Assembly: GCA_002337525.1 (NCBI GenBank)
Contig: DDGG01000030.1
Location: 458 to 64,457, forward strand
Direction of reading: 5' to 3'
Source: Alphaproteobacteria bacterium UBA1908
GTDB lineage: Bacteria > Pseudomonadota > Alphaproteobacteria > Caedimonadales > UBA1908
Length of the DNA stretch: 64,000 nucleotides
Part shown: in pieces, positions 12,641 through 16,810 of the stretch
How the letters are laid out: every line of letters begins with the position of its first letter
Position numbering within the stretch: the first letter of the stretch is position 1
Made by a program: the position numbers and the translations under genes
The notes under the pieces: generated by a model
Database searches by the model: none
What the model was told of the DNA's origin: nothing
The model's input: only the letters and a program-made list of their open reading frames with translations

Positions 12641-12898
12641 CGGATGTCATCCAGGAGGGCACGTTTATTTCTCCGTCATCCAGTTGGACTAGATTGCCAC
12701 ACCTTACTTCGTAAGGTTCGCAATGACGAATACGGACGTCATCCAGAGGGTGGCAGGGCCACCCGTCGGGATCCAGTTGAGCTGGGCTATGTGTTCCCGG
12801 GGGATGAGATTCTTCGCTCGCTCCGCTCTCTCTGAATGACGTGAGGGGTACGGCTTCCTCTGAATGACGCGAGGGGGAGAGCTCTTTCTAAATGACGA
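12641..12898 (-). repeat. MITE-like repeat cluster, locus B (reverse orientation)
   Basis: Contains a type-2 unit (12675..12728) and an R unit (12738..12841) plus short units. Its reverse complement aligns by eye at roughly 90 percent identity to 16536..16779. Confidence 0.85.
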
Positions 12899-12945
12899 CC
12901 TGAAAACACCACCCGGGAAGAGACTTTTTCTGAAGGAGGAGGGTA

Positions 12946-13980
12946 TCATACGGATGGAATTGACAGATTTTCACCCTCTCCGGCAGCGACAAAATGAAGT
13001 GGCGCCTGGGTCATGCCGTCTATACCAAGCAGCCTGGCAATCTCCTTGTCCTGAAAAGCAGCACTTAACCATGTGTTGAGGCCCAAAGACGTCGCATTCA
13101 GCAAGAAAGTCTGAGACAGGTGCCCCGTGTCCATCAGAGCAATGCGATAGGCGCGTGAATGCCGATATTTATCCCAGCATCGATCAAAGTGAGCCACCAA
13201 AAAAACACCCATGGCAATATTTTCCAGGTAAAACTGGTTGTAAAACAGGGGAATCATGTCCTGGTACGTCACTTCATCCCCAATCCGTGTCAAGGTGTGT
13301 CCCTGAAAAGAATAGTGGTAAAGACCTTTTTCAAGACCCTGTACATTGAAAATAACAACGTATGCTTCCAAAGGATGCAACCCGCCACCCGAAGGGCTGG
13401 TTTTACGTACGCCGGCGGTATAAAATCCCCCCGAAGATTCCCGGGCATCTTCATGAATGTTGCCAAAGGTTGCACGTAAAAGGGTGCTGAGCGTTTCCAA
13501 AGACATGGGAGTGTCCCTGAAAACCCGGTTGGTCTTGCGGCTTAACAGAACAGTTAAATAGTCTTTTTCCTTTAAAAGAGCCGTATCGGCAGAAGGCAAC
13601 TCAACCACCGGACCTTTGCGGGAAAAGGTGATCTCCCGGGGCAGATCTTCGCATTCTTCGGCGTATTCCCGGATCCACTCCTTTTTTGAAGGAGGGCTGT
13701 CATAAACTGGAATGTTCTGCGTTCCCATGTGAAAAATTTTGGACAACACATCCCATTGCCAATTTGGCATTTTCAGAGGTTCTTCCTGAAGAAGCCCTCC
13801 CTCCAGAAGGTCCGTATCAATACGATCCAAAGTCGACTTGTCTTTAAAGGGACTCCAAAACAAAAGCCGCTCAAAATAAGACACATCAATTTTGAACTGC
13901 TGATGATGATAGTAATCCCAGACCAGGATATCCGACTCTTCAATTAAAAAAAATACAAAAGGATTCTGATAGAGCCTCAT
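12946..13980 (-). CDS. SagB/ThcOx-family (nitroreductase-fold) dehydrogenase with ~140-aa N-terminal extension
   Basis: Contains RKT.R.F, the PSGGGLHPLE motif, and YY/GLY..Y blocks typical of the SagB-type dehydrogenase domain. The start ATG overlaps the stop of small ORF 1. Confidence 0.75.
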   Translation of the reverse strand: MRLYQNPFVFFLIEESDILVWDYYHHQQFKIDVSYFERLLFWSPFKDKSTLDRIDTDLLEGGLLQEEPLKMPNWQWDVLSKIFHMGTQNIPVYDSPPSKKEWIREYAEECEDLPREITFSRKGPVVELPSADTALLKEKDYLTVLLSRKTNRVFRDTPMSLETLSTLLRATFGNIHEDARESSGGFYTAGVRKTSPSGGGLHPLEAYVVIFNVQGLEKGLYHYSFQGHTLTRIGDEVTYQDMIPLFYNQFYLENIAMGVFLVAHFDRCWDKYRHSRAYRIALMDTGHLSQTFLLNATSLGLNTWLSAAFQDKEIARLLGIDGMTQAPLHFVAAGEGENLSIPSV

Positions 13981-14051
13981 TAACGTTTCTTTTTGATGAC
14001 GACAATATGCACTGGATAGTTCTGGGTATCTTCCAAAAAGACTTTTTGCAT
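13980..14051 (-). CDS. Unannotated 23-aa ORF 1: MQKVFLEDTQNYPVHIVVIKKKR
   Basis: ATG at 14051. The TAA stop (13982..13980) shares one base with the SagB ATG (TAATG). It is a paralog of the ORF at 14249..14320, and differences between the two are mostly synonymous or conservative. Confidence 0.6.
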   Translation of the reverse strand: MQKVFLEDTQNYPVHIVVIKKKR

Positions 14052-14248
14052 TGTCAATCTCTTTTAAAGTTAGTTACTAACTCAAAGCGTAAAGGATATT
14101 GCGTTAAAAGGAAAATAAAAAATTCTTAAGATATTAGATAATTACTTAATTGACAAATTGGTATTTTTTGTATATTTAGTATGTAAAACTAAAAGAATAT
14201 AAATTAAGTCAATTAAGCATAAAATATCCTCTTACTTCATACGTATTT

Positions 14249-14320
14249 TTATGAAATTTTTTTAATGATAACTATATGGCTGGGATATTTTTGGATTTCT
14301 TCCAAAAAAACCTTCTCCAA
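14249..14320 (-). CDS. Unannotated 23-aa ORF 2: (M)EKVFLEEIQKYPSHIVIIKKIS
   Basis: TTG start at the position homologous to the ATG of ORF 1, preceded by AAAGGAG with 6-nt spacing. Paralogy extends ~24 nt upstream through the RBS and then is lost. Confidence 0.55.
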   Translation of the reverse strand: MEKVFLEEIQKYPSHIVIIKKIS

Positions 14321-14416
14321 TGTCAACTCCTTTTAAAGTTAAATGACTTATGATATGAATAGCAGTGTTATTCTTATTAAGCAATAATTTTCCTAAAATG
14401 TTAATATAATATTACG

Positions 14417-15325: not shown

Positions 15326-15612
15326 AGGATTGATTGTTTAAAGGGGTCTTTTCTTTTGCTTTTTAGAAAAATCCAGATCTTTTCATCCTGTAAAAAAGTC
15401 GTTTTCTGCCCCGTCATGTTTGATGAACAAATCTGTGCAATCGTTAAAAATCGTTTCCTATCAAAGCATTAACCGGAATTTTTAGAAGGTTAAGTTCGTT
15501 TTTACCAGTAGGTTACTTTGCATTTAATTAAAATACTTTGTTTTATTGGTCTGTGAATTATTCCTCCTAAGTATTTTTAATTAATAAAAAAATCAATTTT
15601 TTAAAAAAATAG

Positions 15613-15641
15613 TTGACATCCAAGATGGGCATTGTTAAATA
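15613..15641 (+). promoter_or_regulatory. Sigma70-like promoter with extended -10
   Basis: TTGACA (15613..15618), a 17-nt spacer, then TGt-TAAATA (15633..15641). Confidence 0.6.
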
Positions 15642-15647
15642 TAAAGC

Positions 15648-15875
15648 ATACAAAAAATGACTTAACAGATGATTGAGGTTTGAACGATGAGTTTTTATAA
15701 GATGCGATTAAGGGTGCTCTCTTAATCCCCCGGTTTAACGGGCCCCCGTTGTGCCCGTTAAAGCACGCCAGCGACTCTCTGCTGGCGTATACTTCCCTGT
15801 TAGACTTATGCCTCTCCTTCGGGAGGGGCAGCTTTTAGGGAATATGTTCTGATCTTTTAAAATGGAAAATAAACA
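15648..15875 (+). ncRNA. Structured 5' leader or candidate sRNA (four hairpins, 12-codon uORF)
   Basis: Hairpins at 15706..15727 (7 bp), 15734..15762 (9 bp perfect), 15765..15788 (8 bp) and 15810..15829 (8 bp, UUCG loop, followed by AGCUUUUA). The uORF MSFYKMRLRVLS (15687..15725) has GAGG upstream. Confidence 0.4.
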
Positions 15876-16454
15876 ATGTTCACTGTTATAGTGCCAGCTC
15901 TTCTTGCCAGGAATTCTGCCCTTGTGTCAAAAATAATAAAAAGTCGGGAAAGCTTTTTTTCACCCCGGGTTGATGCGTTGTCGGATACAGAAAACACCGT
16001 TTATATTGCGTATGAAAACAAGCCTTTGGGGGTGTTTGCCAGCTGTCGGCTGAACCTTTTAAAAGATTCTCCTGTTGCCTTTTATTACCAAAAGCGTTTT
16101 AACAGTCAGCAGCTGAAAACCATGCGTGAAGCAAGCTTAATCTCCTTTGAAATGGATCCGGATCATAAGGGGCACGAAAACGGGGCTTTTTTCATTGCGA
16201 TTCAGGATTTTTACCGGGGACTTTATCAGGTTTTTATTAATCTGGCAGTGGCCCAAAACCTCAGTGATTTTGTGACACTGGGCGAAAAGGAACAAGATCA
16301 CCAGGACTGTGTTCTTTATGGAAGTTGGCCTTTTCAAAAGACTCATAAAATTCTTTTAAATAAAATTCCCTTTATGATTGGTGAACTTCCAATGGGTCGT
16401 TATCACCATCGCGAACCCATCCCCGATGAAAGATTTGACACCTTTATTATGTAA
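15876..16454 (+). CDS. Hypothetical protein, possible LuxI-like/GNAT-fold N-acyltransferase
   Basis: 192 aa. There is weak remembered resemblance to the autoinducer-synthase / N-acyl amino acid synthase pattern (..VYIAYENKPLGVFASCRL.., EASLISFEMD, ..FVTLGEKE....GSWPF). It was not verified. Confidence 0.3.
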   Translation: MFTVIVPALLARNSALVSKIIKSRESFFSPRVDALSDTENTVYIAYENKPLGVFASCRLNLLKDSPVAFYYQKRFNSQQLKTMREASLISFEMDPDHKGHENGAFFIAIQDFYRGLYQVFINLAVAQNLSDFVTLGEKEQDHQDCVLYGSWPFQKTHKILLNKIPFMIGELPMGRYHHREPIPDERFDTFIM

Positions 16455-16460
16455 TCTTTC

Positions 16461-16810
16461 CTGGATGCTACCCTGGCCAATCTGGATCCCGACGGGTGGC
16501 CCTGCCACCCTCTGGATGACGTCTGTATTACGCCTTTCAGAGGGAGCTCTCTCCTTACGTCATTCAGGGGGAGCCGTCCCCCTCGCGTCATTCAGAGGGA
16601 GCGAAGCGAGCGAAGAATCTCATCCCCGGGGACGCATAGCCCAGTTCAACTGGATCCCGACGGATGGCCCTGCCACCCTCTGGATGACATCCGTATTCGT
16701 CATTGCGAACCTTACGAAGTAAGGTGTGGCAATCTAGTCCAACTGGATGACGGAGAAATAAGCACGTCCTCTGGATGACAGAAAAACAAACGTGCCTTCC
16801 TCGATGACAG
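16461..16810 (+). repeat. MITE-like repeat cluster, locus C (forward orientation)
   Basis: Contains a partial R unit (16480..16520), a full R unit (16587..16688), a type-2 unit (16698..16750) and trailing short units. It is the inverted partner of locus B. Confidence 0.85.

What the first reader, a model, noticed from the sequence alone, without database searches (positions are those of the whole stretch)
12641..16779. SagB/peptide/LysR/LuxI-like cassette is bracketed by ~250-bp inverted copies of a composite repeat
- The reverse complement of 12641..12898 aligns by eye to 16536..16779 with only scattered mismatches (roughly 90 percent identity).
- The aligned stretch covers a full R unit, a type-2 unit and flanking short units, in the same internal order.
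- The ~3.6 kb between them therefore sits between long inverted repeats. This interval holds SagB, the two peptide ORFs, LysR, the promoter and leader, and the 192-aa ORF.
- Neighbouring genes on either side (a SIMPL domain protein and an OPT transporter) look like backbone genes.
- This geometry fits a composite mobile cassette, a segment captured by repeat-mediated recombination, or an invertible segment.
- Other loci of the same repeat family (A and D) are more diverged from B and C than B and C are from each other. This hints at a linked history for the bracketing pair.
Basis: seen in the sequence. Interest (0 to 1): 0.65.

Follow-up and report, generated by a model that had tools for sequence, protein, structure and literature searches.

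The report
Inverted intergenic repeats flanking a gene cluster
Two 250-bp copies of a scattered, hairpin-rich intergenic repeat do sit in opposite orientation on either side of a small peptide-modification/signalling gene cluster, but they look like ordinary "junk" repeats of this genome rather than the ends of a mobile cassette.

Summary
Window 12645-12892 aligns to the reverse complement of 16536-16780 at 90.4% identity (226/250, E 1e-92). The modules are in the same order and there is a 72-bp perfect core.

The arms belong to a dispersed, GC-rich, modular repeat family. It is found only between genes: four arrays in the window and at least eight more on six Tara Oceans contigs with the same tetranucleotide signature. 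B and C are the most similar pair known (93% in the ~105-nt unit, next best pair 88%), so a linked history is supported.

The mobile-cassette reading is not supported:
- There are no target-site duplications.
- No transposase or recombinase was found nearby.
- Three relatives (SagB 53-57% identical) carry the LysR/peptide/SagB core, and one also the LuxI-like gene, without these repeats.
- In one relative SagB is followed directly by the OPT transporter, so repeat C lies inside a conserved neighbourhood, not at its edge.
- The same repeats also bracket the housekeeping gene nusB elsewhere.
- Four arrays placed at random in 64 kb give a pair this close and inverted about 30% of the time.

Inversion by homologous recombination is feasible and would restore the SagB-then-OPT order, but it is untested.

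The gene calls hold: SagB-type dehydrogenase, two 23-aa peptides, LysR, and a LuxI/FeeM-fold protein.

The parts
12641..12910 (.). Repeat array B, in the 324-nt spacer between the convergent 3' ends of SIMPL and SagB. Modules: S unit 12646-12674, R unit 12675-12737, type-2 unit 12738-12846, and three overlapping 28-nt units 12825-12908.
   Evidence: spacer GC 53% against 42% for the window
16469..16845 (.). Repeat array C, between the 3' end of the 192-aa ORF and the start of OPT. It has the same modules as B in reverse orientation, plus an inner 48-nt half type-2 unit (16482-16529) and two extra outer S-like units.
   Evidence: spacer GC 51%
12665..12736 (.). 72-bp stretch identical to the reverse complement of 16689-16760. 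This is the longest exact homology between the arms and is long enough for RecA-type recombination.
16689..16760 (.). Partner of the 72-bp perfect core.
6982..7375 (.). Repeat array A, same family. It has two type-2 units, one R unit and S-like units, in the orientation of C. It lies between an outer-membrane beta-barrel gene and a dCTP deaminase-like gene.
35904..36150 (.). Repeat array D, same family, with type-2 and 28-nt units but no R unit, in the orientation of B. It lies in an intergenic spacer.
11771..11847 (+). tRNA-Asp (GTC). The tRNA-Asp/SIMPL pair is conserved in two relatives.
11869..12621 (+). SIMPL-domain protein (250 aa), the left neighbour of the bracket.
12946..13980 (-). SagB-type (nitroreductase-fold) peptide dehydrogenase, 344 aa. 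Its GC3 of 0.50 is the highest in the window (z +3.5).
13980..14051 (-). Peptide gene 1, MQKVFLEDTQNYPVHIVVIKKKR (23 aa from the ATG). Its stop codon overlaps the SagB start (TAATG).
   Evidence: homologous peptides lie upstream of SagB in L083, L084, L137 and L141
14249..14320 (-). Peptide gene 2, MEKVFLEEIQKYPSHIVIIKKIS (23 aa from the TTG spaced after AAGGAG). It is a paralogue of peptide 1: 83-nt direct repeat, 76% identity.
14417..15325 (+). LysR-family regulator, divergent from the peptide-SagB operon. The start may be at about 14450, because the public gene call is 291 aa.
15876..16454 (+). 192-aa protein with a GNAT fold of the LuxI/FeeM (acyl-homoserine-lactone / N-acyl amino acid synthase) type.
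16915..18807 (+). OPT-family oligopeptide transporter (630 aa). It lies outside the bracket but is directly linked to SagB in relative L083.

Best explanation
The two arms are neighbouring arrays of a lineage-specific, dispersed, modular intergenic repeat. The family resembles REP/BIME, BOX and MITE elements. Its modules are 28-nt hairpin units, a 63-nt R hairpin unit, and a ~105-nt type-2 unit with 11-12-nt terminal inverted repeats and an internal GGGTGGC-N3-GCCACCC hairpin.

Such arrays occupy many intergenic spacers of this uncultured marine bacterium. Arrays B and C happen to lie in the two spacers either side of the SagB/peptide/LysR/LuxI-like genes, in opposite orientation. Their high mutual similarity is best explained by local copying or by gene conversion between nearby copies (inferred). 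It is not explained by their being the termini of a mobile element.

The genes between them are a horizontally patchy peptide-modification/signalling module. Its conserved partner, the OPT transporter, lies just outside arm C. The repeats therefore arrived after the module was in place and do not delimit it. As GC-rich hairpin arrays in 3' and intercistronic positions, they probably act at most as terminator or mRNA-stability elements, by analogy with REP/BIME (inferred, not tested).
For: - The family is dispersed and strictly intergenic: four arrays in the window, and eight more arrays on six Tara contigs, CENR01....
- Those contigs' pooled tetranucleotide signature correlates with the window at r = 0.96. 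The two halves of the window give 0.97.
- Several of those contigs end in the repeat.
- The type-2 unit has conserved ends and a variable middle.
- On L109 two arrays of the family, inverted and with 33-nt exact arms, bracket nusB plus one other ORF.
- Flanking genes elsewhere are housekeeping genes: lepA, dCTP deaminase, murA/EPSP-type synthase.
- There is no target-site duplication and no recombinase nearby.
- L083, L084 and L141 have the LysR/peptide/SagB core. No copy of the repeat was found in L083 or L084.
- In L083 SagB is followed directly by OPT, and that OPT is the closest OPT homologue seen (48% against at most 41%).
- The chance of a close inverted pair, given four arrays in 64 kb, is about 0.30.
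Against: - B and C are the closest pair among all copies seen (93%) and share the rare R unit with a 72-bp perfect run. That is more than random placement predicts and needs an extra local process.
- SagB is a compositional outlier (GC3 z +3.5), and SagB homologues are taxonomically patchy and IS-flanked in a Bacillales genome. The interior has therefore probably been transferred horizontally at some time.
- Synteny breaks immediately after SIMPL in both closer relatives, so an insertion at this site cannot be excluded.
- Only one relative shows the SagB-OPT linkage.
- The full genome was not available for a census of the repeat.
Confidence: 0.7

Rival explanations
1. Invertible segment. The 250-bp arms, with their 72-bp perfect core, serve as substrates for homologous recombination that flips the 3.6-kb block. 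In the present orientation LysR and the LuxI-like gene read towards OPT. In the flipped orientation the peptide-SagB operon would read into OPT. The current state may be one of two coexisting orientations, or the fixed product of a past inversion.
For: - The arms are inverted, 90% identical, and have 72-bp and 39-nt exact stretches. That exceeds the roughly 25-50 bp known to suffice for RecA-dependent exchange (established knowledge).
- In relative L083 the order is peptide, SagB, OPT, all co-directional, with a 65-nt spacer. That is exactly the order the window would have if the block were flipped.
- L084 and L141 share the window's divergent LysR / peptide-SagB layout. One inversion of the whole block is therefore the simplest way to relate the window to a hypothetical layout of L084 type followed by OPT.
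Against: - Only one orientation is seen: the window and Tara scaffold_342 are identical.
- The independent Logan contig stops 30 nt into each arm, at the 39-nt exact repeat, as expected for a k=31 assembly. It carries no orientation information.
- No invertase gene is nearby.
- L083 also differs in LysR orientation and lacks the LuxI-like gene, so the comparison needs more than one rearrangement.
- What lies downstream of SagB in L084 and L141 is unknown, because the contigs end.
Confidence: 0.18
2. Composite mobile cassette. The arms are the inverted termini of a transposon-like or repeat-captured unit that carried SagB, the peptides, LysR and the LuxI-like gene into the SIMPL/OPT spacer.
For: - Inverted, highly similar arms bracket a compositionally uneven segment: SagB GC3 z +3.5, LysR GC z -1.7, and the peptide spacer at 25% GC.
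- SagB homologues are scattered across phyla and are flanked by IS66/IS21 elements in one Bacillales genome.
- Synteny ends right after SIMPL in the relatives.
- tRNA-Asp lies 1 kb upstream.
Against: - No target-site duplication, and no transposase or integrase.
- The arm ends are ragged tandem units of different number rather than defined termini.
- The same repeat occurs singly at A and D and around nusB.
- The gene set occurs without the repeats in L083, L084 and L141 (the repeat search covered L083 and L084).
- OPT, outside the arms, is linked to SagB in L083.
Confidence: 0.07

Closest known systems
REP / BIME (bacterial interspersed mosaic elements) of Escherichia coli and REPINs of Pseudomonas
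   Same: - Short, GC-rich, imperfect palindromes.
- Confined to intergenic and 3' regions.
- Assembled into mosaic arrays of several unit types, in either orientation, at many loci.
- No target-site duplications.
- Neighbouring copies can recombine.
   Different: - The sequence is unrelated (GTCATYCAG motif).
- The units are larger: a 63-nt R unit and a ~105-nt type-2 unit with a variable centre.
- No RAYT transposase could be looked for.
- Copy number in the full genome is unknown.
BOX elements of Streptococcus pneumoniae
   Same: Modular build, with a variable number of short tandem units (here 28 nt) joined to longer conserved end modules. The arrays are hairpin-rich and intergenic.
   Different: The sequence and host lineage are unrelated. 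BOX has a fixed A-Bn-C order, whereas these arrays mix four module types in several orders.
MITEs such as the Correia (CREE) elements of Neisseria
   Same: The type-2 unit is ~105 nt, with 11-12-nt terminal inverted repeats, conserved ends and a variable middle. It is dispersed in intergenic DNA.
   Different: No target-site duplication flanks any of the nine copies. No parent IS was found. The units are mostly nested in arrays rather than inserted singly.
Composite transposons and site-specific invertible switches (Hin, Fim, shufflons)
   Same: A gene segment lies between inverted repeats.
   Different: There is no IS or transposase in the arms, no invertase gene, and no target-site duplication. 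The arms are 250-380 bp of a dispersed repeat, not short recombinase sites.

Membership tests
REP/BIME-like dispersed intergenic repeats | Copies confined to intergenic regions at many loci | tested here: met
   All four window arrays and the arrays on six Tara contigs lie between ORFs or at contig ends.
REP/BIME-like dispersed intergenic repeats | Units are short, GC-rich, imperfect palindromes | tested here: met
   CCTTAC-TTC-GTAAGG, GGGTGGC-AGG-GCCACCC and CCCTC...GAGGG stems are visible in the sequence. The arrays are 51-53% GC against 42% for the window. No compensatory changes were seen (0 of 22 pairs), and the whole-array folding z-scores are only -1.4 and -2.1.
REP/BIME-like dispersed intergenic repeats | Mosaic arrays of several unit types in variable order and number | tested here: met
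   S, R, type-2 and 28-nt units are combined differently in A, B, C, D and in the Tara contigs.
REP/BIME-like dispersed intergenic repeats | Associated RAYT (IS200/IS605-type) transposase in the genome | not testable with these tools
   Only 64 kb plus about 21 kb of probable same-genome contigs were available.
MITE | Terminal inverted repeats | tested here: met
   YGTCATYCAGAG ... CTCTGAATGACG is conserved in 8 of 9 type-2 copies.
MITE | Target-site duplication flanking each copy | tested here: not met
   The flanks of the nine aligned copies show no direct repeat. Nor do the outer ends of B and C.
Composite transposon / mobile cassette | Transposase-bearing or transposase-recognised termini plus a target-site duplication | tested here: not met
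   No transposase or integrase family in the ORFs from 8.1 to 24 kb. No target-site duplication. The array ends are ragged.
Composite transposon / mobile cassette | The same bracketed unit found elsewhere, or an empty site in relatives | tested here: inconclusive
   Relatives with SIMPL at 64-68% identity have different genes downstream of SIMPL. Relatives with the cluster lack the repeats. No close relative was available.
Site-specific invertible switch | Adjacent invertase/recombinase gene and short specific inverted repeats | tested here: not met
   No recombinase domain in neighbouring ORFs. The arms are copies of a dispersed repeat.
Site-specific invertible switch | Both orientations present in a population | not testable with these tools
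The only independent contig ends inside the arms.
SagB-type peptide dehydrogenase cluster (the interior of the bracket) | SagB domain model above its cutoff, with a short precursor-like peptide immediately upstream | tested here: met
   TIGR03605 scores 116.8 bits (cutoff 78.4). TIGR04511 scores 160 bits, below its cutoff of 240. Peptides are conserved in five loci, and the stop of one overlaps the SagB start.
LuxI-type acyl-homoserine-lactone synthase (192-aa ORF) | Match to Autoind_synth (PF00765) above its threshold | tested here: not met
   The window protein has no Pfam hit even at E = 10. 6 of 23 family members hit PF00765 weakly, best E 3e-4.
LuxI-type acyl-homoserine-lactone synthase (192-aa ORF) | AHL-synthase-type GNAT fold | tested here: met
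   AF2 model at pLDDT 89. Top Foldseek PDB hits are FeeM, EsaI, MesI, BjaI, LasI and TofI, with TM 0.5-0.6. The family profile hits AHL synthases 3p2f (E 1.2e-3) and 6wn0 (E 7e-3). The product made was not tested.

The most novel reading that the evidence does not exclude
The inverted arms form a recombination-driven switch. Flipping the 3.6-kb block changes which operon reads through the repeat array into the OPT transporter gene: the peptide-SagB operon, or the LysR/LuxI-like operon. This would give a population-level on/off coupling of a modified-peptide/acyl-signal module to its transporter. More broadly, this repeat family would spread by local inverted duplication and create such flip-capable brackets around genes, as around nusB on L109.
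Probability: 0.08. Interest if true: 0.6.

Novelty: new member of a known kind. Interest (0 to 1): 0.3.

Why it matters
As a mobile-element claim it matters little. The arms are best read as two copies of an undescribed but conventional REP/BIME/MITE-like repeat family in an uncultured marine bacterium. That bacterium was sampled at Tara Oceans station 18, in surface water, in the under-0.22-µm fraction.

Two points have some value.

First, the family is modular and well defined, and neighbouring inverted copies are each other's closest relatives at two loci. A full-genome census could test whether the family spreads locally or is homogenised by gene conversion.

Second, the bracketed genes together with OPT form a conserved, uncharacterised module: several short peptides with a shared LE-x4-YP-like motif, a stand-alone SagB-type dehydrogenase, a LysR regulator, a LuxI/FeeM-fold enzyme and a transporter. 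This module is more interesting than the repeats. Anyone studying it should know that OPT belongs with it and that the repeat arms are not its borders.

Tried and rejected
- **Species-genome scan with the OPT protein.** The best match was only 41% identical. 
- **Exact look-up of the OPT protein.** Not on record.
- **Viral-contig scan with the repeat core.** 0 hits.
- **Metagenome scan with the same 19-mer.** 44 loci, of which only the 6 Tara CENR01 contigs are true family members. The rest are chance 19-mer matches.
- **Rfam.** At gathering thresholds it finds only two tRNAs. At E ≤ 1 over 12.5-17 kb it finds nothing in the arms.
- **Covariation in the type-2 unit.** 0 compensatory pairs, so there is no evidence for a selected RNA structure. 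Whole-array folding is barely better than shuffled sequence.
- **Target-site duplications.** None found.
- **Structure of the 192-aa ORF.** Single-sequence AlphaFold was useless (pLDDT 30). A word-index homology search found only the query itself. The exhaustive phmmer search then gave 22 relatives, which rescued the model.
- **Literature.** Searches for TIGR04511 and for the repeat motifs returned nothing relevant.
- **Logan contig as evidence on orientation.** I considered this and rejected it. The contig ends exactly k-1 = 30 nt into the 39-nt exact inverted repeat, so the break is an assembly-graph artefact.
- **The 72-bp perfect run as proof of gene conversion.** I considered this and did not adopt it. 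At 9.6% divergence, my estimate is that such a run somewhere in 250 columns has a probability of roughly 0.1.

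
Full report
**Observation**

The inverted similarity is real. The repeat finder reports arms 12655-12802 / 16624-16771 (148 nt, 94%) and 12795-12874 / 16553-16632 (80 nt, 89%). blastn joins them into one 248-nt alignment, 12645-12892 against the reverse complement of 16536-16780, at 90.3% identity and E 1e-92. 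A local dynamic-programming alignment gives 226/250 identities and a 72-bp perfect run, 12665-12736 = reverse complement of 16689-16760.

Both arms have the same internal order:
- a 29-nt S unit;
- a 63-nt R unit with a CCTTAC-TTC-GTAAGG hairpin;
- a ~105-nt type-2 unit;
- three 28-nt tandem units.

It has two further S-like units on the outside and an inner half type-2 unit at 16482-16529. Of that half unit, 39 nt are identical to the reverse complement of 12738-12776.

**What the arms are**

The same family occurs at 6982-7375 (A) and 35904-36150 (D), at 76-83% identity to B and C. The diagnostic motifs occur almost nowhere else in the 64 kb: one isolated 9-mer match lies outside the four arrays. 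All four arrays lie between ORFs.

A 19-nt core pattern scanned against public metagenome contigs recovered six Tara Oceans contigs (CENR01...) with eight more arrays. These too lie between ORFs or at contig ends. Their pooled tetranucleotide signature correlates with the window at r = 0.96, as well as the two halves of the window correlate with each other (0.97). They therefore come from the same or a very close genome.

An alignment of nine type-2 units shows three parts:
- a conserved 39-nt 5' end, GTCATCCAGAGGGTGGCAnnGCCACCCGTMGGGATCCAG;
- a variable middle;
- a conserved ~35-nt 3' end finishing in CTCTGAATGACG, which gives 11-12-nt terminal inverted repeats.

No copy has flanking direct repeats. 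There are no compensatory base changes. Rfam has no match.

This is a dispersed, modular, GC-rich intergenic repeat (51-53% GC against 42% for the window). It is of the REP/BIME, BOX or MITE kind, and its sequence appears to be undescribed.

**What lies between and beside the arms**

Between the arms:
- **SagB-type dehydrogenase**, 12946-13980, minus strand. It passes TIGR03605 and falls below the cutoff for TIGR04511.
- **Two paralogous 23-aa peptide genes upstream of SagB**, MQKVFLEDTQNYPVHIVVIKKKR and MEKVFLEEIQKYPSHIVIIKKIS. The stop codon of the proximal one overlaps the SagB start.
- **A divergent LysR regulator**.
- **A 192-aa ORF.** It has no Pfam hit, but exhaustive phmmer found 22 relatives. 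A profile of them weakly matches solved AHL synthases (3p2f E 1.2e-3, 6wn0 E 7e-3). Six members touch PF00765. An AlphaFold model built on the alignment (pLDDT 89) is closest to FeeM, EsaI, MesI, BjaI, LasI and TofI, with TM 0.5-0.6.

Outside the arms lie tRNA-Asp and a SIMPL protein on the left, and an OPT transporter on the right.

**Relatives**

The window belongs to an uncultured marine bacterium. Tara scaffold_342 is 100% identical over window 11794-23980, with the block in the same orientation. The proteins are recorded from Tara station 18, surface, <0.22 µm fraction.

A scan of the species-genome collection returned no relative closer than 41% OPT identity.

The SagB clade at 53-61% identity is known only from short metagenome contigs:
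- **L084 and L141.** These have the same divergent LysR / peptide(s) / SagB layout as the window. L084 has four peptide genes and a weak homologue of the 192-aa ORF. No copy of the repeat family was found in L084; L141 was not searched for it.
- **L083.** The order is LysR, peptide, SagB, OPT, all co-directional, with 65 nt between SagB and OPT. Its OPT is 48% identical to the window's, closer than anything returned from the species genomes.
- **More distant SagB homologues.** These always sit next to some transporter (MFS, ABC or AzlCD). In one Bacillales genome they lie between IS66 and IS21 copies.

From this I infer that a transporter is part of the functional module. In this clade the transporter is OPT, so arm C sits inside a conserved neighbourhood rather than at its border.

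On the other side, two relatives with SIMPL at 68% and 64% identity keep the tRNA-Asp/SIMPL pair. Downstream they continue with motB/motA or fliR/fliQ, and they carry neither the cluster nor the repeats. No empty site can be defined.

**Is the bracket special?**

The geometry alone is not. Four arrays placed at random in 64 kb give a neighbouring pair this close in 55% of trials, and close plus inverted in 30%.

On Tara contig L109 two arrays of the same family, inverted and with 33-nt exact arms, bracket nusB and one more ORF. That is housekeeping content, not accessory genes.

There is no target-site duplication. The assignable ORFs from 8 to 24 kb include no recombinase or transposase. The arm ends are ragged tandem units.

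What is non-random is the relatedness of the two arms. B and C are the closest pair of nine type-2 units (93%; next best A2-L114 at 88% and A1-A2 at 82%). They also share an identical R unit, which otherwise occurs only in nearby array A (93%). The L109 pair shows the same tendency.

Local duplication, or gene conversion between nearby copies, explains this best. It is an inference. By my estimate the 72-bp perfect run is only about a 1-in-10 event under uniform 9.6% divergence, so it does not prove conversion.

**Inversion**

The arms are ample substrates for homologous recombination. Flipping the block would place peptide-SagB directly upstream of OPT, as in L083. A single inversion is also the simplest way to relate the window to a layout of L084 type followed by OPT.

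This is suggestive only:
- L083 differs in other ways as well.
- The contigs of L084 and L141 end before the downstream gene.
- Only one orientation is seen in the assemblies.
- The independent Logan contig (window 12747-16511) stops exactly 30 nt into the 39-nt exact inverted repeat. That is a k=31 assembly-graph break and says nothing about orientation.

**Horizontal transfer**

SagB has the highest GC3 in the window (0.50, z +3.5), while the other cluster genes are within range. SagB homologues are phylogenetically patchy. The interior has probably moved horizontally at some point, but nothing ties that movement to the arms.

**Verdict**

- A linked history for arms B and C is supported.
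- The mobile-cassette interpretation is not supported.
- The invertible-segment idea remains open at low probability.

This is a new family of a known kind of element, in an ordinary configuration. The enclosed module plus OPT is the more interesting object.

Noticed in passing
window 13980-14326 (minus strand); L083 2664-2729; L084 1786-2297; L137 6859-6924; L141 about 770-839: A conserved family of 21-26-aa peptides (consensus roughly MKKI-x-LE-x4-YP-x-H-x-V...K) always lies just upstream of this SagB clade, in 1 to 4 copies. In the window, the stop of the proximal peptide overlaps the SagB ATG (TAATG). No YcaO or cyclodehydratase is nearby, so the chemistry this stand-alone SagB-type enzyme performs on these peptides is unknown.
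   Followed up: partly
window 15876-16454; L139 8001-8561: The 192-aa ORF belongs to a small uncharacterised family (22 relatives among 1.8 billion cluster representatives) with a LuxI/FeeM-type GNAT fold. A 47% identical member on another Tara contig sits between an HTH regulator and an F-type conjugation operon (TraL, TraE, TraK, TraB/TrbI, TraC). That position recalls quorum-sensing control of conjugation.
   Followed up: partly
window 15600-15875: The long 5' region of the 192-aa ORF contains three features. There is a promoter-like TTGACA-17-TAAATA at about 15613-15641. There is a GC-rich structured stretch at 15720-15800. There is a terminator-like hairpin, GCCTCTCC-TTCG-GGAGGGGC, followed by a T-rich run at about 15811-15838. 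The only Rfam signal is a sub-threshold SorY match (33.8 bits against a gathering score of 111, E 3e-4). This could be an attenuator or riboswitch-like leader.
   Followed up: no
window 11771-12621; L086 9903-10756; L087 1-800: The tRNA-Asp/SIMPL gene pair is conserved in two relatives, but the gene order downstream differs in all three genomes (cluster here, motB/motA, fliR/fliQ). The 3' side of SIMPL is a recurrent synteny breakpoint.
   Followed up: partly
window 52600-64000: A lower-GC block (35-40% against 42%), all on the minus strand. It encodes a KS-ACP-thioesterase polyketide synthase, a phosphopantetheinyl transferase, a flavin amine oxidase, an isochorismatase, an ABC ATPase and a hexapeptide transferase. 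This is a probable secondary-metabolite cluster, next to tRNA-Lys at 52019-52094.
   Followed up: no
L109 (CENR01027423.1) 3326-3501 and 4699-5120: Two arrays of the same repeat family, inverted, with a 33-nt perfect match. They bracket nusB and a 166-aa ORF. This is a second case in which neighbouring inverted copies are each other's best match.
   Followed up: partly
window 12946-13980: SagB has a GC3 of 0.50, the highest of 53 ORFs in the window (z +3.5). The adjacent peptide/LysR spacer is only 25% GC. The composition inside the bracket is uneven.
   Followed up: partly
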